In this document: one piece after another, positions 3,596 through 60,166 of the stretch
Position numbering within the stretch: position 1 is the stretch's first letter
Layout: every line of letters starts with the position of its first letter
DNA from: Negaprion brevirostris
Lineage: Eukaryota
DNA length: 64,000 bases
Direction: 5' to 3'
Assembly (NCBI GenBank): GCA_030324005.1
Contig: JARDVH010000025.1
Location: forward strand, 78,777,950 to 78,841,949
Notes under the pieces: model-generated
The model's input: only the letters and a program-made list of their open reading frames with translations
The model's database searches: none
What the model was told of the DNA's origin: nothing
Position numbers and translations under genes: made by a program

Positions 3596-4743
3596 GGAGC
3601 ACAAAAGAGCATTCATGACTGATGATATACCCTGATCTGCTTGTTTAAAGAAAGACCCTTGCCTAGATGGCTTAATTGTCTATCCAGAAGCCTTAATATT
3701 AAAACATGGTCACAGAATCCAGTGGCTTTCTGGAAAATAAGTAACCCCGGGTTACTTATTCTGACTTTAAACTCTTCTTCTCTCTCAACAGACGCTGCCA
3801 GACCTGCAGAGCCTTTCCAGCATTTTCTGTTTTTACAGCCCCAAGCTACTGGTCAGTTTTTACTGGCAGGTTTACAAATTCTGTACCACGGTGTTGTTGC
3901 ATATGGCATGGCTTTGTCAGAAATATGAAATCTAATATAGGGAAGTCTAACACAGAGGGCCTTATAACGGTGGTCATAAATCCAGCCAATAGAGGATTCA
4001 GGGTAAATCGCTTGGCTCAGAGATTGGTGAGAATATTGAACATGTTCCCACATAGAGCAAGTGACTGAAATGACAGCATAGATACATTTAAGGGGAAGCT
4101 GGCTAAGTAAACTACAGACAAAGTAATAGAAAATTATGTTAATATGGTGAGATGCTAGAATGAGACATATGGAGACTATAAACACAAGCATTGTTACAAG
4201 CACTATTAGGCCAAATTGGGTGTTTCTGTGCCATAAGTTCCATATCATTCTACATAATTGCTGTGGATTGCTAAGCACTAATTCCACTACAACCTCTATT
4301 GTTGTAGCCTCCTCGACTATTATGAAGAAAGAATTCCTGCCTATGTCTGAGACTTTACAATTCCATCGCCTGGCTGCTAGCTTTACTGACTGGCCAATCT
4401 GAACCCAATTTAACCACTGAGCCATTGAAATCCCTCGTTATTACAATGAATCTCGTCATCTTTCTCAATCTGTATAACTGGTCTCTACTTACTTTGTGCT
4501 GCTCCTTCATCAAATTCACTCTGGAAAGACTCTGCAGGTCTGGCAGCATCTGTTGAGAGAGGAAGAGTTAACGTTTCAAGTCAGAGTTGTTACTTATTTG
4601 CCAGAAAGCTAGTGGATTCTGTGGCCATGTTTTATGCTCAGGCTTCTGGATAGACAACTGAGCCATCTGGCCAAGGGTCTTTCTTTAAACAAGCAGATCA
4701 GAGTCCAGTGATATCATCAGTCATGAATGCTCTTTTGTGCTCC
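3596..4743. repeat. Pair of ~225-bp inverted repeats (3596-~3820 and ~4521-4743) around a ~700-bp spacer
   Basis: ggagcacaaaagagcattcatgactgatgatat...gatctgcttgtttaaagaaagaccctt...gctgccagacctgcagag reappears as its reverse complement. Confidence 0.85.
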
Positions 4744-19360: not shown

Positions 19361-20738
19361 ATGACTGCATGTGCATGAGTGCTTTGGAGGAAAACTTGCA
19401 GGTGGTGGTGTTCCCATATGTCTGCTGCCCTTGTTCTTCTAGATGGAAGTGGTCATGGATTTGGAAGTGCTGGATAAGGATTTTTGGTGAATTGCTGCAA
19501 TGCATTTTGTAGATATGTAGATTTTGTAGTTCATGTCGGACAAATAGTCCCCAAGCTCTGCACAAGTTCTGAATACTTCATCAATTGCCAACTGAAGCTC
19601 CCATTTCTTGCTGTCTGTGTCTTTGTCTTCTCCAGTACTTTGAACCCTTGAAGGCAGTATCTTAGTCCAGTATATTTGACCTCTGTAGCAAAACTTGTTT
19701 GGTACTCGAGTAAGCCATTCAAACTTGTCCTGTTATTCAGTTTGGTTCTGGCTGATCTTACCTCTACTCCATTTACCTGCTGTTGTTTCTTTTCCCTTTA
19801 TTGCATGAGATAAATTTATTGATTCCAGTTTTTAAAATTTCAATAGATTCAGCATCTACAGCCATTTGGAGGAGTGAGTTCAAGATTTCTGTTTGGCTTG
19901 CAGCGAAGAGTGCTTCTTGATTTCATTCTTAAATGGTCTAGTTCTAATTTTGAGATTATGTCCCTTCGTTTTAGATTCCCTCACTAAAGGAAATAACCTA
20001 ATAAATACCTCAATTATTTTAATGTTTTCAGGAGATTACCATTTAATCTTCTAAATTTAAGGAAGAGAAATAAAGTGTTTGCAGCTTTCCTGCAACATTT
20101 TGGCCCTTTAAGCCCTTTGATTTGATTTATTATTGCCACATTTATTGGTATGAGTGAAAAGTTTTGTTTCTTGCGCACTTTACAGACAAAGCATACCATT
20201 CATAGAGAAGGAAAGGAGAGGATGCAGAATGTAGTGTTACAGTCATAGCTAGGGTGTAGCGAAAGATCAACTTAATATGAGGTAGGTCCATTCAACGGTC
20301 TAATGGCAGGAGGAAAGAGATTATTCTTGAGTCGGCTGGTACGTGATCTCAAACTTTTGTATCTTTTTCCCGATGGAAGAAGGTGGAAGAGAGGATGTCT
20401 GGGGTGCGTGAGGTCCTTAATTATGCTGGCTGCTTTTCTGAGGCAGCGGGAAATGTAGCCAGAGTCAATGGATGGGAGGCTGGTTTGCGCGATGGGCTGG
20501 GTTTCATTTACAACCCTTTGTGGTCTTGGACAGAGCAGGAGCCATACCGAGCTTTCTATGATGCACCTATAAAAGTTGATGAGAGTCATAGCACTTCCTT
20601 AGCCTCCTGAAAAATAGAGGTGTTGATGGGCTTACTTAACTACAGTGTTGGTGTGGAGAGACCAGGACATGTTGTTGGTGATCTGGACACATAGAAATTT
20701 GAAGCTCTCAACCATTTCCACTTCATCCCGTTGATGTA

Positions 20739-20956
20739 CAGTAAGCAGTCTCACAACACCAGGTTAAGGTCCAACAGGTTTATTTGGTAGCAGGAGCTTT
20801 TGGAGCACTGCTCCTTCATCAAGCGAATGCCACTCACCTGATGAAGGAGCAATGCTCCGAAAGCTCGTACTACCAAATAAACCTGTTGGACTTTAACCTG
20901 GTGTTGTGAGACTATTTACTGTGCCTACCCCAGCCCAACGCCAGCAACTCCACACT
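20739..20956. mobile_element. Palindromic Penelope-derived short element with hammerhead motif
   Basis: ~90-bp inverted arms; 9-bp TSD gttgatgta (20730-20738 and 20957-20965). Confidence 0.8.
20834..20870 (+). ncRNA. Minimal type-I hammerhead ribozyme motif
   Basis: tcac-CTGATGA-a-GGAGC-aat-GCTCC-GAA-AGCT-C-gtac: both core boxes, a 5-bp stem II and a palindromic AGCT stem III. Stem I is only partly paired. Confidence 0.7.
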
Positions 20957-20971
20957 GTTGATGTAGACAGG

Positions 20972-21101
20972 GACTCCCCAGGACCGGATGGAATGCATCC
21001 AAGGGTTTTGAAAGAAATGGCGGGGGTGATAGTGGATGCCTTGGTGATTATTTTCCAAACGTCGCTGGATTCTGGGGAAGTGCCGGAAGATTGGAAAACA
21101 G
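20972..21101 (+). mobile_element. CR1 LINE RT fragment nested in the Rex1 copy
   Basis: SPGPDGMHPRVLKEMAGVIVDALVIIFQTSLDSGEVPEDWKT, running into a gap. Confidence 0.8.
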
Positions 21102-32306: not shown

Positions 32307-32515
32307 TTTCTTTTGTGAGATTCATCCAATATCAGGGATGGGATTTTATTTCATTAAATCTCATATTGCATTGTGTGCAGATACAATCTTTAAATTAATA
32401 AACTGCAATTATTTCATTAGATATGTTTGATAAAAAGAAGTATTATTATTCCATTCCTGAATCAGAATTGGCGCTTGGAGCCTTTCTGGTTGATTGCTGA
32501 GTGAGACACAAATAA

Positions 32516-32592
32516 ATCGGTTGGACTGAAACCTGGTGTTGTCAGACTTTTTACTGTGTTTACCCTAGTCCAACGCTGGCACATCCACATCA
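32516..32592 (+). mobile_element. Truncated copy of the Penelope-derived short element
   Basis: gttggactgaaacctggtgttgtcagactttttactgtg...ccacatca, flanked by the 14-bp direct repeat tgagacacaaataa (32502-32515 and 32593-32606). Confidence 0.8.
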
Positions 32593-33689
32593 TGAGACAC
32601 AAATAACAGTTATACATGTGTTTGATAAAGATGTTTCTTGCATCACAGTATCACAGAGTAATTACAGCCCAAAAGGAGACCTTTCAGTCCTTCATGTCTG
32701 CTCTGGTCCTCTGACGGAACAGTGACCACACTTCAAAACTACTTTATCAGTCGAAAGGCACTTTGGAATCTTCTGAGATCACGGAATGTCAGATAGGAAT
32801 GTACGTCCTTTTTCTCTGTGGCATTATTTTCAACAGTTTAAAATTAGAATTGTAAAAAGTTAACTAATACTAAAGTAGGCCAAAAAAAAATTCTGGAAAT
32901 AAGCATGTGATCTAGAAATAGGGAATATTAATCACAGGAGGATGTAATTTAACCATCCTTGCTTCACCTAAATTTACAACCCATTTTGGCATTGATTATA
33001 AACAGCATTAATTTTCTACCTTCTTCCCACACGGATTCTCCTTTCCCATGCTCTGCTCATACTCCGTAATATTCTCCCTTTCAGATAATTATCCAGTATT
33101 TTTTCCCAATGACGTAATTGAGTCAACATAAAATTACCGCTTGTGGCAAAATTCTGTTACTTCTTTACATTGGAAAGGTTCTTTCTAAATCCTTTCTTCA
33201 GTTTCTTGTTCTTAGTCATGTTGCCAAAATAAATTATCTTGTTTATTCCATTTCTTTCTTCGCTTACATGCTTGAAGCCACCTTTCGAAGTTCTCACTTC
33301 AAGAGAATTTGTCCAGTTTTCTCCTGTCTTTCCTGGCAAAGCAGATTGTTATTAATTCCCTGCCGAGAATATACTAAATAAGGAGTGATCACGTACATAG
33401 CCTGCTGAAGTACTGAGTCACGCGCAGGAGAAATGTCTTCATCCAAAGAGTGGGGAGAATGTAACATTTTCTAATGAAGCATGCATACATTTCAGTGGAA
33501 GCATCTGAGGGAAAGAGGAATCTAGGATTATGCTGAAAAGGATGAAGAGAGATGAGGAGTATTTACACTAAATGCCCAATAGCCTGTTTCTGTGCTTGAA
33601 GTTCTATGCAATTCAGAGTAGTTGAGAAGTATGAATGGAGGGAGGAAAGGAAGTCATGAGGTTATTGGTAAAAGTCCATCAATTTGTAG

Positions 33690-43740: not shown

Positions 43741-45660
43741 CACCTTCAAACAATGCGCAGATTCTTTATTGTCTGGGCGAATCGTCGCTGCAATCACTTG
43801 GCATCTGGATTAAGTTAGTGAGACAGTTGCAGAAGGGAATCGCTTTCCGCTCCCTTGTTCTAGCTCTCAGCCACGGGCATTTATCTTAGTTTCAAGAAAA
43901 TTAAAGTTTAAATTAATGCAAAAACATTTTTAAAAGTGAGACTTCCTGACGTGAAAGCTTGACTGTGGGATTTAGCACTTTAATACCAGACACGATTCTT
44001 CGTTCAACATTTGACTGTTGTTCATGGTCCCTCGCTGAGATCGCGTTGGACCGAACAGGCGGGAAGGGAATTAAAATAAACTTTTCGTCTTCCTGTTCGG
44101 TCAATCTGTATGTGGAAGGAAGGCAAGTTTAATCGCTTCCATTCTAGAGGAGATGTTCCCGGATGATCCCCAGGTCTGCTTCGGGGGTCCAATGGAAAAT
44201 CCACCCCTCATTCCGCGTAGTTCAAAATTTTCTCAGCAGCCTTCTCTCTGTTAGCACCGACCGCACACTCAGCCCATGGGTAATGGGTGGCTTATTTAAT
44301 GAGGGGAATTTTCACAATCCAGGCCAATCCCACGGTCTCTGGTGTTCACAAGGCGCCATTTCCCGGCGGGATTGATCAGATAGTATTTGGAAAAGTGGCG
44401 GGGAGGCGGTGCACTGATGATTTTACCCTGCTTAACACAAGACGTTGATCTGGATCTCAGACCAGTCTCTGGTTGGTGGGACAGAGTGCACTTGATACAT
44501 CTGTTGAACCATCATAATCGGCATTACTTTTAAAAGTACCTTATGCATAGTTTCATTTGGACTTCAACGTGATTTCTGCCTGAAATGGCTGAACGCGTTT
44601 CCGACTTCTGCTGTGAGCTCCTGTAGGCGCCCTTTCAGTAATTTAATCAAATTCAATTTGTAAGATGACCACCCAGAAATGAAACGATTCTTAATTGAAA
44701 ACAAGTACAGCATTATCAGCTTCAGTGGGTAGCTGTGGGACACGGTGAAATCATCTCTCTCCCACCGTTCAGCTTGGAATCAGATTTTGAAACTATGAAG
44801 GTTTGAAATAAATATCCAGTTTACCAATACTGTCCTGGAGAAATGTTTCAACTTAAAAAAAAAACACCCTAAAATCGAAGATACTGTTCGATCTCCAATT
44901 TAAAATCATAGTATTTAATGGCAACTTCTGGGATCTGGGAAATGGTTTTCATTTTTTTTACGTTTAACGAGCCGACATTATAGTTTCCATTCCGATTCTA
45001 AAGTTTCACAGCGTTCTCGTACTTTCAAGGCCAAATGAATTCTGAAATAAAGCCATGGGCGTTTAATGCCAAAATGCATGACTGAGAAGTGTCATCCCCC
45101 AAGAATGCCCCTCATCAGAAGATGAATGGACTTTTAATGACTCCGGTGATAAAAGCATGACCGTGGGCTATAACAACAGAATAGAAACGGCAGTGATTGT
45201 GCCAGTAACATTTACTTCCCCAACAGCCATTTGACTACTAATGACAAATCCATGCAAATACCAGCATTAATAGTGAAGGCCAGCATGTTTGACGGGGGAA
45301 AAAAACTCAAATAGGCATGTTAATGATTAGCAAGGAGAAAAAAAGCAGACAATGGTGGAAATGTTCAGCAAGTCTGTCAGCGTCTGTCGCGAAAGAAACA
45401 CACAGTGTGTCAGGTCGATGACTGTGTTAAAATTTTATGTTCTACAGGACGACAGAGATTTTGTAACTGCTGGTGTAAAGGTTGTTCTTGCGAATAATCA
45501 TCTGAAATATAAAAATTAAGACGAACCGAACAAATATTGTACCAAGGTGATGTACATGGTTTGTGCTGAACTGGATTGTAGTGAGGGAGATCTGCTCATC
45601 TTCATCAACTTCACTCTCTTGGACTGTCTTGGTCTAGTTGAGTCTGGCGATAGATTTGGA

Positions 45661-45933
45661 GTAAAAAGTCTGACAACATCAGGTTTTAGTCCAACCGATT
45701 TATTTGATAAGATTCTAATCAGTAATCTCTAAACTGTCTGTGCTTTATATGCTCTGTCTGAGGCCAGAACTCTCCATTCACCTGACGNNNNNNNNNNNNN
45801 NNNNNNNNNNNNNNNNNNNNNNNNNNNNNNNNNNNNNNNNNNNNNNNNNNNNNNNNNNNNNNNNNNNNNNNNNNNNNNNNNNNNNNNACTGTGTTTACGC
45901 CAGTCCAACGCCGGCATACCCACATCATGACTA
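45661..45933. mobile_element. Penelope-derived short element with inverted ends (gap inside)
   Basis: 13-bp TSD cgatagatttgga (45648-45660 and 45934-45946); same termini as 20739-20956; tcacCTGACG runs into the gap. Confidence 0.8.
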
Positions 45934-56400: not shown

Positions 56401-58979
56401 GGACCAAATGTTATTCAATAAATAACTTGACCTCATCAGTCTAACTGTATCCATTATTTGCATATGCACATTGTAAAACATATATGAAGACATTTTGGCA
56501 GTAATTGTCATGTTTTTTGATTTAACATGTGACTAGAAAACAGCACATGCAGTACATAGTTCAAAATGAGAACATTTCACTGCTAATAATCAGTGGATGT
56601 CATCTGTAATAATAAAATCAACTTGAATAGTACAACTGGAAGATATCCCAAAAGTTATTATAAAATGGTGTGACTGGTTCCACAATTCTTCTTTAGTGGT
56701 TTAATCTGCTTCCTTCAGTTTGGAACTGAAAGTACAGACAGAGGGAATGCTTACAGATCCATATGTTGGAAACTTTGTTTGACTTACAGTGCAACATATC
56801 TCATCTGTTGGACTGCCATGGTATTAAGTTTGCACACAGCCTGATCCAGCTCATTCTTGTCTTTACAAGTATCACACTGTAAACTGTACTGCGCCCTCTT
56901 TGTAATTTTTTATGTCTATCCATCTGTAAGACAGCCCTCTTATTGAGACTTANNNNNNNNNNNNNNCATCTTTTCTCTTACTGTACACTAAGAGCAGATG
57001 TACCAAGGAAACTGATTGATGTGTTACATTCAAAATGCTTCCTTCAGTCAACAACTGGAAATGCAAACTAAATGGCCAAATTAGTTTAAAATCTGATGTG
57101 ATTGAGTGATTTAGTGTTGTGGTTGCAAGAAGCAATTGACACTGTAGGGAAAATATTCACAAAAATTTAAATTTAAACAAGCAGTAATATTCTGCTGTAT
57201 AGTTGGACATTAGTGGTGCTGTAGATTTGTTAGTCTTAAAGGCTAGTATGGTTTTAAGGCTCTGTGAAGGGTCTGAAACGTTGCAATGAATCTTACTTTC
57301 AACACACAGAGAATGCAGGGATAGTAAATTAAAGTTTTTAATTTTGTTGAATACTGATAATAAGATGCAATCTAAAAAACTTATGGTAATAAGCATCTGT
57401 ATGGATATATTCACTTCAGATGGCTGTTTGGCAAGTTATGAGGGAATATTTGGTGAGCCACTGAACATGACAGGGGGTGAAATGGTGCAGATGGAATTGC
57501 AAGAAAGGCAATCTGCTGGTCCAAGAGTGAGCTCAACGGCTCCTTCAACTGCTGTGCCGAGGAATTTGAACATTACAGGCTTTGCCTACAGACACTCAAA
57601 AGCAGAACTTCATGGTGTTATTTAAAATTGTGACATGCAACACTTCATGAATGAAAGTCCAACTCATAGCTGTGCAATGCTTCATTACTGTCTTCCTCGG
57701 CTTATACATTGCCATGCAAAAAGTGGCTATTCTATAGCTCTCTAGATTGGAGTATGCGTAACAATTGAGAAAGAATGGCAAGGTGAGAGGGGCCATGGAG
57801 AATTTAGATTTTGTGTGAAACTCAGAGGGATGGGGGCCATGGGTAAAGGGTGGATGTTGATAGACAACAAAAACAGCAGGATGGCTCTCAGTGGGCCCAC
57901 CAGTTTCCATTGCTGGGTCCCTTGTTTGGACACTGAGTGACTTTAAATGAGCCTCTCCCTTCTCCCCCTCCCACGAATACCCTGGCAGCCTGCAAGTAAC
58001 CCAGACAGGATTTGCTTGTTACCTTTCCCGCATGGTAGGCAAGGGTCATGATGGGAAGATAGAAAAAGTGGAATTAAAGCCACAATCAAATTAGCCGTCA
58101 TATAATTGAGTGGTGGAGGAAGCTTGAGTGGCCAACTGGCTTCTTTGCAAGCCAGCATGGGCACAACGGGCCAAATGGCCTCCTTCAGTGCTGTAACCAC
58201 CTTGTTGATACTATGATTTATTAGGTTCATGTGCAGTAGATAACAATAATCTTACTCTCAATGATTTTGCAATTGTGATATTAGGGTTTCGTGAAAAAAA
58301 CTAATCTTCTTTTTGAATGGACACAAGAAGCCCTAAAGATGGCTGCCAGAAGTAACATTAGCATTTTCAACTGCAACTGATTAAGCTCTAGAAAGTTCCA
58401 AATGGATTGTATGTAACCCTGAAAGAGTCCACAGCATTTAATAGTGCTATAACTGCAGAATTAGTGTGAAATAAGTAACCTTCTTTCCCAAATGTTAGCT
58501 GAATCCACCTAAAAAAGGCAAACACTAACTGGTTGATTGGAGAAACCATCACAGCTGCTAAATCGAACCTCAAGTTTCAATCACTTTACTTCAGAAAGAA
58601 GGAATTCANNNNNNNNNNNNNNNNNNNNNNNNNNNNNNNNNNNNNNNNNNNNNNNNNNNNNNNNNNNNNNNNNNNNNNNNNNNNNNNNNNNNNNNNNNNN
58701 NNNNNNNNTGATTTGAACTTTCACCTTTAAATATCTTTTTATCATTATTTATTTTTAAACTTTGTATCTGTATTGTCTGTTGGGCTATTTTAGAACTGAC
58801 CCACTCATATGCTGGGCTACATACACACACACAAATTGTTAGCTCATGGACCACTTTAAGGAAATGCTGTCTTTGTGGTTCTGAAACTTACATTGTTTGG
58901 ACTGTGGTGTAGAACTTATCCTCACTGGTGTAAGTCATACCAAGACAATGAGATTTATTCCATGACAATCCTGGTAGAA

Positions 58980-59073
58980 TAAAAAGAAATCCCACAACAC
59001 CAGCTTAAAGTCTAAACAGGTTTATTTGTGGCAAAAACTGCAAGCTTTTAGGACAGCCTGTCCCTTCGTCAGG
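58980..59073 (-). mobile_element. Penelope-derived element fragment with variant hammerhead
   Basis: Reverse complement cCTGACGAa-GGGACAG-g-CTGTCCt-aAAAGCTT...caaataaacctg. Confidence 0.65.
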
Positions 59074-59340: not shown

Positions 59341-60027
59341 GAGATGTGAAGATGCCAGTATTGGACTGAGGTGGGCACAGTAAAAAGTCGCATAACACCA
59401 GATTAAAGTACAACAGGTTTATTTGATGTCATGATCTTTTGGAGCGCTGCTCCTCCATCAGGTGAGTGGAGAGTTGGGTTCACTAATGTGGCATATGTAG
59501 ACACAAACTCAATTGCAAGGTAAAGGTTGGAAAGTGAGTCTTAACAGGTAACCAAGTCTTTACAAGTACAGACAATGCGTGTGAAGAGAGGGAGAATCAC
59601 AGGTTAAAAAGCTATGAATTGTCTCAAGCCAGGACAGTTATTAAGATTTTGCAAGCTCAGGCCAAATGGTGGAGGTTACATGTAGTGTGACATGAACCCA
59701 AGGTCACAGTTAAATCATCTTTATGCGTGTGGAACTTGGCTATCAGTTTTTGCTCACTGATTCTACATTATCGTGTGTCTTGGAGGCCACCTTGGAGAAA
59801 GCTTACCCGAAGATTGGAGGCTGAATGTCTTTGACTGCTGAAGTGTTCCCCGACAGGGAGGGAACACTCCCTTCCTTGCATTCGCATTCCAACCATTATT
59901 TTGCAATTCAGTCTCTGTTTATATATGTCGTGTTTGTGAACCCACCTCTCCACTCACCTGATGAAGGAGCTTGTGATACCAAATAAACCTGTTGGATTTT
60001 AACCTGGTGTTGTGAGACTTTTTACTG
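59341..60027. mobile_element. Penelope-like element with long inverted ends and GIY-YIG C-terminal remnant
   Basis: Inverted ends (acagtaaaaagtc...aacaggtttatttg / caaataaacctgttgg...gactttttactgt); internal minus-strand CSLPVGEHFSSQRHSASNLRVSFLQGGL; flanking repeat tgccattaa. Confidence 0.8.
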
Positions 60028-60166
60028 TGCCATTAACAGAAGCTGTGCTAAGGTTATGAATATGCATGGCCACAGGCATAAACCATGTTATTCACTGAGA
60101 AATCAATCATATGATAAAAGTGAATAACTTTTTCTTGTCATCATTTCAACAGCCTTGGCAAACAAT

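What the first reader, a model, noticed from the sequence alone, without database searches (positions are those of the whole stretch)
20730..20965. ~220-bp palindromic mobile element carrying head-to-head hammerhead ribozyme motifs
Seen: two ~90-bp inverted arms and a 9-bp TSD. The right arm holds a complete minimal hammerhead core (CTGATGA 20838-20844, stem II GGAGC/GCTCC, GAAA 20859-20862, palindromic AGCT, predicted cleavage after C20866). The left arm holds a mutated copy on the minus strand (TTGATGA...GCTCC-AAAAGCT). Known: Penelope-like elements carry minimal type-I hammerheads thought to act as dimers, and often form inverted 5' structures. Inference: a non-coding retrozyme-like or inverted PLE-derived unit whose transcript from either strand would contain a ribozyme and also fold into a long hairpin.
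Basis: partly seen in the sequence, partly recalled or inferred. Interest (0 to 1): 0.72.

Follow-up and report, generated by a model that had tools for sequence, protein, structure and literature searches.

The report
Mirror-image stump of Penelope retrotransposon
This 220-base palindrome is one old insertion of two back-to-back end pieces of a very abundant Penelope-like jumping gene; its ribozyme motif is an inherited, decaying remnant, and the places where thousands of such halves meet likely mark where the element's RNA begins.

Summary
The anatomy is real: 92-nt inverted arms, a 9-bp target-site duplication, and a minimal hammerhead at the stated bases. It is not a self-propagating retrozyme. 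The arm is the pseudo-LTR end of a Neptune/Nematis-type Penelope-like element (PLE) with roughly 100,000 fragments in this genome; near-full copies join it to RT and GIY-YIG-like coding sequence. The extra ~34 nt on one side is the known PLE 'tail'. Central junctions differ from copy to copy, so the palindrome is most likely rebuilt at each insertion. Copies decay neutrally (catalytic G12 lost in 52 of 182 arms), and a read-through RNA would bury the core in a long hairpin. The useful clue: in 40 unselected palindromes none of 80 arms passes position -10 (about 31 expected), the mode is an initiator-like A 32 nt behind a TATA box, and arms stopping there tend to gain a non-templated C, as copying a 5' cap would give. 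Best model: both cut target strands prime cDNA on PLE RNA 5' ends, and the two short cDNAs are end-joined. The architecture is published, and this scan has noted the same thing many times on other DNA, including elsewhere in this genome.

The parts
20730..20738 (+). Left target-site duplication (9 bp)
   Evidence: single copy in the empty paralog
20738..20829 (-). Inverted, tail-less pseudo-LTR arm; reaches about -7 relative to hammerhead C3
20791..20825 (-). Dead minimal hammerhead (C3>U, G12>A, stem I 3' strand altered)
   Evidence: sequence; numbering as
20829..20831 (.). Head-to-head junction at -7/-8, next to the predicted RNA 5' end (A at -6 = 20832)
   Evidence: family-wide pile-up; start site inferred
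20831..20922 (+). Sense pseudo-LTR arm
20835..20869 (+). Minimal type-I hammerhead: core 20838-20844, bulged A 20845, stem II 20846-20850/20854-20858, GAAA 20859-20862, palindromic AGCT 20862-20865, predicted cut after C20866, stem I 2 of 3 pairs
   Evidence: matches the min-HHR described in PMC4209133
20876..20881 (+). AATAAA, possible poly(A) signal of the parent element (untested)
   Evidence: sequence; shared by copies
20923..20956 (+). PLE 'tail', present at one end only; in near-full copies it runs into the ORF start codon
20957..20965 (+). Right target-site duplication (9 bp)
20205..20737 (-). Host: decayed 3' end of a LINE ORF (Rex1/Babar-like by a recalled motif, not tested)
59342..60035 (.). 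Longer relative with the same layout: tailed arm running back into the endonuclease C-terminus (minus strand) plus a short inverted tail-less arm

Best explanation
This is a single, old insertion made of two head-to-head copies of the pseudo-LTR end of a Neptune/Nematis-type Penelope-like retrotransposon, likely built on the spot when both nicked target strands primed reverse transcription on the 5' end of PLE RNA and the two short cDNAs were end-joined. Shown: parent element, tail on one side, target-site duplication, variable junctions, hard upstream limit of the arms, neutral decay of the hammerhead. Inferred: (1) transcription starts at the A six bases before the hammerhead core, behind a TATA box; (2) the PLE protein starts cDNA at two internal sites, at the start and end of the tail, as shown in vitro for the anole element; (3) each cDNA runs about 95 or 128 nt to the RNA 5' end, often adding a C opposite the cap; (4) the two 3' ends anneal or are trimmed and patched by microhomology-type repair. 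The hammerhead belongs to the parent RNA and likely does nothing in this copy.
For: Parent: loci carrying the arm continue upstream into a GIY-YIG-like domain with a C-x4-C-x2-C linker and an RT (PF00078, E 6.9e-08, above cut-off). In L104 and L097 arm plus tail run straight into the ORF ATG. Abundance: 1,478 exact matches of a 32-nt motif against 0 in the control; 46 fragments in 833,620 called bases of evenly spaced samples, about 1.2e5 genome-wide. The same inverted layout occurs at kb scale (L032, L046, L084, L101). Junctions: 50 listed of 227 two-core palindromes have many different spacers, often with scraps of PLE sequence. Spacing between fixed anchors: 280/802/1,915/661 loci for gaps 0-30/31-60/61-90/91-120, against 280/788/1,296/1,804 for uniform breakpoints. 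In the first 40 of the 1,915: 0 of 80 arms pass -10 (31.2 expected), 16 of 80 end at -6, 33 of 40 have exactly one tail, and 23 of 33 testable loci have a flanking repeat of >=8 matched bases against 0-3 in mismatched pairs. Either arm can be the longer (tail-less 20, tailed 12, equal 1 of 33; hand count). Two loci clearly and two possibly join arms of different subfamilies. Upstream consensus has TATATATG 32 nt before a CCACT initiator-like A; a TATA-like word was found in 42 of 76 long arms. Among arms stopping near -6, the next non-templated base is C in 18 of 27 cases the partner did not explain; controls at -5, -4 and -2 show no C excess; the commonest junction (16 cases) is the one two cap-extended ends would give. 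Neutral decay: G12>A in 52 and the tolerated neighbour C11.1>T in 55 of 182 arms; core intact in 63 of 182. Literature: two internal RT start sites bracket the tail, both strands are cut and extended, and a dimer is predicted (PMC11167929).
Against: No RNA 5'-end data: the start site is inferred from DNA alone. In 36 of 40 loci both arms are of one subfamily, which a fold-back copy of one cDNA would also give. Five of the 18 'non-templated C' cases may be diverged partner arms on inspection; without them it is 13 of 22 (p 0.012). 72 of 135 short arms have the templated G next, so the end may lie at -7 or be spread. The uniform-breakpoint null ignores junction insertions. The 40 loci all come from one contig and need exact anchors. 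Pfam did not recognise the endonuclease stretch; that domain and the clade rest on motifs, without a tree. D. virilis Penelope has a TATA-less promoter (PMC2377424).
Confidence: 0.7

Rival explanations
1. Fold-back (self-priming): one target-primed cDNA reaches the RNA 5' end, snaps back and copies itself; the element's endonuclease then resolves the hairpin at the tail boundary. Same parent, same dead ribozyme, one RNA instead of two.
For: Proposed for inverted pLTR junctions in PMC3846280 (passages). Both arms share a subfamily in 36 of 40 loci. It explains one tail per insertion (33 of 40) without extra assumptions.
Against: The copied arm cannot reach further upstream than the first strand, yet the tail-less arm is longer in 20 and the tailed arm in 12 of 33 loci. 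Two clear mixed-subfamily loci exist. kb-scale cases occur with the tail on either the long or the short arm (L084 against L101).
Confidence: 0.2
2. A non-autonomous palindromic retrozyme- or MITE-like family: the whole 220-nt hairpin is transcribed or excised and copied as a unit, using its hammerheads.
For: Thousands of copies of similar size with TSDs. One junction recurs (16 cases; 5 of 50 listed).
Against: Most junctions are unique, and the recurrent one is predicted by annealing of two ends. Arms form a continuum with solo arms and long RT-bearing copies. There are no tandem hammerheads on one strand. The hairpin of -143.9 kcal/mol hides the core. Catalytic G12 decays like its neighbour.
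Confidence: 0.05
3. Two independent solo insertions, or later rearrangement, brought two arms together by chance.
For: Solo arms with their own TSD exist, e.g. window 32509-32595.
Against: One TSD encloses both arms here and in 23 of 33 loci. Orientation is consistently head-to-head with one tail.
Confidence: 0.02

Closest known systems
Insertion units of endonuclease-positive PLEs with inverted pLTR, tail and TSD (Pen2a_Av of Adineta vaga, PMC3846280, passages; overview in PMC8557442, passages)
   Same: Inverted 5'-truncated pLTR next to a direct one, a 30-40 bp tail at one end only, a 9-bp TSD, TATA and Inr-like TCACT in the pLTR, and the pLTR/tail abutting the ORF start.
   Different: Here both halves are cut to about 90-130 nt with no ORF between them, at 1e4-1e5 copies, and the truncation points pile up at the Inr-like site.
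Minimal hammerheads (min-HHR) in metazoan PLE pLTRs (PMC4209133, parts 1-2 of 4)
   Same: Conserved core, bulged base after A9, G10.1-C11.1 pair, palindromic 15.2-16.2 with no loop 3. That paper already reports dual motifs 100-700 bp apart on opposite strands, and motifs in fish Neptune PLEs.
   Different: Stem I is only 3 bp in the family consensus (2 here). The paper does not mention sharks (0 hits) and does not analyse junctions in the parts read.
Poseidon_Ac of the green anole (PMC11167929, parts 1-2 of 4)
   Same: Tail bounded by two sharp end points (about +89 and +122 here), with a hammerhead just upstream.
   Different: Different clade (no Cys linker reported there). Its ORF starts inside the hammerhead, whereas here the ATG lies at the tail end. 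The parts read do not discuss run-off at the RNA 5' end or inverted products.
Non-LTR retrozymes (bioRxiv 10.64898/2026.07.22.740005, part 1 of 5 and passages)
   Same: Non-coding, carries a type I hammerhead, related to PLE pLTRs.
   Different: Retrozymes are defined as head-to-tail tandem repeats with at least two hammerheads on one strand; this is an inverted pair with one motif per strand.

Membership tests
EN+ Penelope-like element (insertion remnant) | pLTR contiguous with an RT ORF in long copies | tested here: met
   PF00078 hit in L068, with the arm and tail downstream; arm and tail precede the ATG in L104 and L097
EN+ Penelope-like element (insertion remnant) | C-terminal GIY-YIG endonuclease | tested here: inconclusive
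   Motifs VYLI..C...C...YIG and H are visible, but Pfam gave no hit
EN+ Penelope-like element (insertion remnant) | 30-40 bp tail at one end, inverted 5'-truncated copy, TSD | tested here: met
Neptune/Nematis clades | C-x2-5-C-x2-C linker between RT and EN | tested here: met
   C-x4-C-x2-C in L033, L038 and L075; definition from PMC8557442
Neptune/Nematis clades | RT phylogeny groups with named members | not tested
   No reference PLE proteins were fetched and no tree was built
Minimal type-I hammerhead (min-HHR) | Core boxes, stem II, palindromic stem III stub, stem I | tested here: met
   Right arm and family majority; compensatory stem II pairs 7 vs 2.8 and 7 vs 2.3 expected, not phylogenetically independent; left arm fails at C3 and G12
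Minimal type-I hammerhead (min-HHR) | Self-cleavage as dimer or with PLE protein | not testable with these tools
   Needs a bench assay; the genomic footprint test was inconclusive
Non-LTR retrozyme | Tandem head-to-tail units, each with a hammerhead on the same strand | tested here: not met
   Two inverted arms, one motif per strand
Non-LTR retrozyme | Circular RNA of unit length | not testable with these tools
   Only assembled contigs of uncertain type were available
MITE / non-autonomous unit copied from a master | Fixed internal junction and length across copies | tested here: not met

The most novel reading that the evidence does not exclude
These palindromes are a genome-wide fossil record of PLE 'strong-stop' cDNAs: reverse transcription starts at the two tail boundaries, runs off the capped RNA 5' end adding a C, and normally jumps to the 3' repeat as in LTR elements; when it fails on both target strands, the two cap-extended ends anneal and are sealed head-to-head. 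This would explain pseudo-LTRs, inverted repeats and the one-sided tail with one mechanism.
Probability: 0.35. Interest if true: 0.6.

Novelty: new member of a known kind. Interest (0 to 1): 0.3.

Why it matters
As an object it is ordinary: a miniature of a published PLE insertion layout. Its value lies in the numbers. How PLEs build pseudo-LTRs and inverted ends is still open (PMC11167929 leaves the later steps unvalidated). Thousands of short palindromes give base-level predictions for the RNA start, the two RT start sites and a cap-templated base, all testable by CAGE and with the existing in vitro system.

Tried and rejected
Rfam scan: no hammerhead family at E<=10; MIR841 was rejected as a generic hairpin far below its gathering score.

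In vivo cleavage footprint: arms stopping exactly at the cut site gave 210 pattern hits, and 23 of the 30 inspected were scored as true stops (22 by eye). The control three bases upstream gave 336 hits, 12 of 30 scored as stops (8 by eye; the rest are a subfamily variant). After a rough correction that is about a two-fold excess, but 15 of the 22 join through the AC/CAC microhomology that stem I itself creates, so the test is inconclusive.

Expression: no RNA holder listed on record as RNA. Four contig sets of guessed type showed no start sites and no splice joint in the stretch, which says nothing either way.

Other searches: PDB sequence search of the RT stretch found nothing meaningful. Pfam found no family in the endonuclease stretch. 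Folding single arms gave z of -0.3 to -1.6, no signal.

Paper searches: 'Penelope' + 'strong-stop' gave 1 unrelated listing; 'Penelope-like' + 'Neptune' + 'shark' gave 0; 'Penelope' + 'shark' + 'hammerhead ribozyme' gave 1 review, listing only. Searches gave the papers cited. The library lacks most subscription journals, and no repeat library (Repbase, Dfam) could be searched, so the family may already be named. No supplements were read; those of PMC4209133 and PMC11167929 may show similar motifs or junctions.

The sequence look-up in earlier findings returned only unrelated phage notes.

Full report
Observation. The window holds two 92-nt inverted arms at 20738-20829 and 20831-20922, 89% complementary, between two copies of GTTGATGTA at 20730-20738 and 20957-20965. 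A paralog of the host LINE elsewhere in the window carries that word once and goes on with the same seven bases as the right flank, so this is one insertion with a true 9-bp duplication. Rfam has no hammerhead hit here at E<=10, which is unsurprising for a motif without stem III.

What family it is. A search of the 2.69-Gb own genome gave 7,679 first-look candidates, of which 40 were scored. The 29 distinct top loci aligned share arms and tail but differ at the centre. A longer relative in the window (59342-60035) runs from the same arm into a frame ending ...FNCDLGFMSHYM. Walking upstream through own-genome searches led to a GIY-YIG-like region preceded by C-x4-C-x2-C and to an RT with a Pfam RVT_1 hit above cut-off. 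In two near-full copies the arm and tail run directly into the ATG of the ORF. The Cys linker marks the Neptune and Nematis clades (PMC8557442, passages); I built no tree, and Pfam did not recognise the endonuclease. Evenly spaced samples (100 x 10 kb, 833,620 called bases) held 46 fragments, about 1.2e5 genome-wide. A 32-nt hammerhead pattern matches 1,478 times against 0 for its control. That the host is a cartilaginous fish is recalled from the repeat types and from earlier notes, not tested.

Unit or scar? If a palindromic master were copied, junction and length would be fixed. They are not. The 50 listed of 227 loci with two exact cores have many different spacers, often with scraps of the element. 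With fixed 12-nt anchors on both arms, gaps of 0-30, 31-60, 61-90 and 91-120 nt hold 280, 802, 1,915 and 661 loci (controls 0, 2, 1, 1). Uniform breakpoints would give 280, 788, 1,296 and 1,804. So breakpoints are spread up to a limit and then stop. The same layout occurs at kb scale, and solo arms with TSDs exist.

Where arms end. I fetched the first 40 of the 1,915 loci. Numbering from hammerhead C3 = 0, none of 80 arms extends past -10, where 31.2 would under uniform breakpoints, and 16 end at -6. The 3' ends fall at about +73 to +92 or +110 to +125, apart from 4 shorter ends, 1 of them cut by N. Exactly one tail is present in 33 of 40 loci (p 2e-5 against independent choice). Flanking repeats of at least 8 matched bases occur in 23 of 33 testable loci (7 dropped for N or short arms), against 0-3 in mismatched pairs. 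The parent consensus has TATATATG with its first T 32 nt before the A at -6, which sits in CCACT, an initiator-like context (consensus definitions recalled; TATA plus TCACT are also noted in a rotifer pLTR, PMC3846280). Of 211 stored arms reaching -6, 135 stop near it. The next antisense base is the templated G in 72, C in 50, A in 8 and T in 5. Where the partner arm does not explain it, C is 18 of 27 non-G cases (13 of 22 after removing five doubtful ones by eye, p 0.012), and neighbouring positions show no such excess. An RT copying a 5' cap would add that C (established for other retroelements; recalled). Two such ends can pair through four bases around a G-G mismatch, which gives exactly the commonest junction seen (16 cases). 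These 211 arms come from all stored loci, some chosen by similarity to the query or by a core pattern, so they are not an unbiased sample.

Mechanism. Both outer ends are 3'-type junctions, as expected if each nicked strand primed its own cDNA. The anole PLE protein cuts and extends both strands, is predicted to be a dimer, and starts RT at two internal sites that bound the tail (PMC11167929, parts 1-2 of 4). I infer that one strand primes at each site, both cDNAs run to the RNA 5' end, and repair joins them. Against a simple fold-back (proposed in PMC3846280): either arm can be the longer (tail-less 20, tailed 12, equal 1 of 33), and two loci clearly join different subfamilies. For fold-back: 36 of 40 loci have same-subfamily arms. 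No RNA start data were available.

The ribozyme. The family majority is a minimal hammerhead of the kind described in PMC4209133 (parts 1-2 of 4), which already reports pairs on opposite strands 100-700 bp apart. Compensatory stem II pairs are enriched (7 vs 2.8 and 7 vs 2.3 expected), probably as a few subfamily events in the parent lineage. The inserted copies decay neutrally: across 182 arms (45 loci found by core patterns left out) the catalytic G12 is changed to A in 52 and its tolerated CpG neighbour to T in 55, and the core is whole in 63. A transcript across this copy folds into a -143.9 kcal/mol hairpin that pairs the whole core, and each strand has only one motif, so no tandem dimer can form. 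A test for arms ending at the cut site showed a rough two-fold excess, mostly explained by microhomology, so it does not show cleavage in vivo.

Verdict. A new, very short example of a known PLE insertion layout, not a retrozyme. Earlier notes of this scan describe the same thing in at least 33 genomes (227 notes hold all my search words) and six times in this genome, some with the same RNA-start and double-priming readings. I had written mine down before looking. The cap-C signal and the gap spectrum are the parts I did not see in the notes shown. Interest 0.3.

Noticed in passing
window 59342-60035: Longer insertion of the same family: about 620 nt from the endonuclease C-terminus to the tail on the minus strand, plus a short inverted arm, with a likely ~12-bp TSD.
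   Followed up: partly
window 32509-32595: Solo arm of a related subfamily, starting downstream of the hammerhead, with tail and a 14-bp flanking repeat.
   Followed up: partly
window 45659-45924: Head-to-head insertion of a second subfamily with a 13-bp flanking repeat; an N gap hides part of the hammerhead.
   Followed up: partly
window 58979-59073: Single tail-less antisense arm ending near -1.
   Followed up: no
window 20966-21101: Seven bases after the right TSD the host LINE stops and an open CR1-like ORF2 fragment (SPGPDGMHPRVLKE..., family name recalled) begins on the opposite strand: a second junction right beside the insertion.
   Followed up: partly
window 3596-3820 and 4521-4743: Two 83%-identical inverted copies of another repeat, each with CTGATGA followed 23-29 nt later by GAAA but no clear stem II.
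   Followed up: no
L107 and L101 (G000:C133, about 1.845-1.850 Mb): Cluster of long PLE copies with inverted short partners; a candidate region for a near-complete tandem element.
   Followed up: no
listing, G000:C7:3544014-3544142: The junction between two arms is filled with telomere-like TTAGGG-related repeats.
   Followed up: no
L270, L276, L286, L301 and others: At least four subfamilies differ just after the cut site (one with a 7-nt insertion), and some change stem II with compensation.
   Followed up: partly
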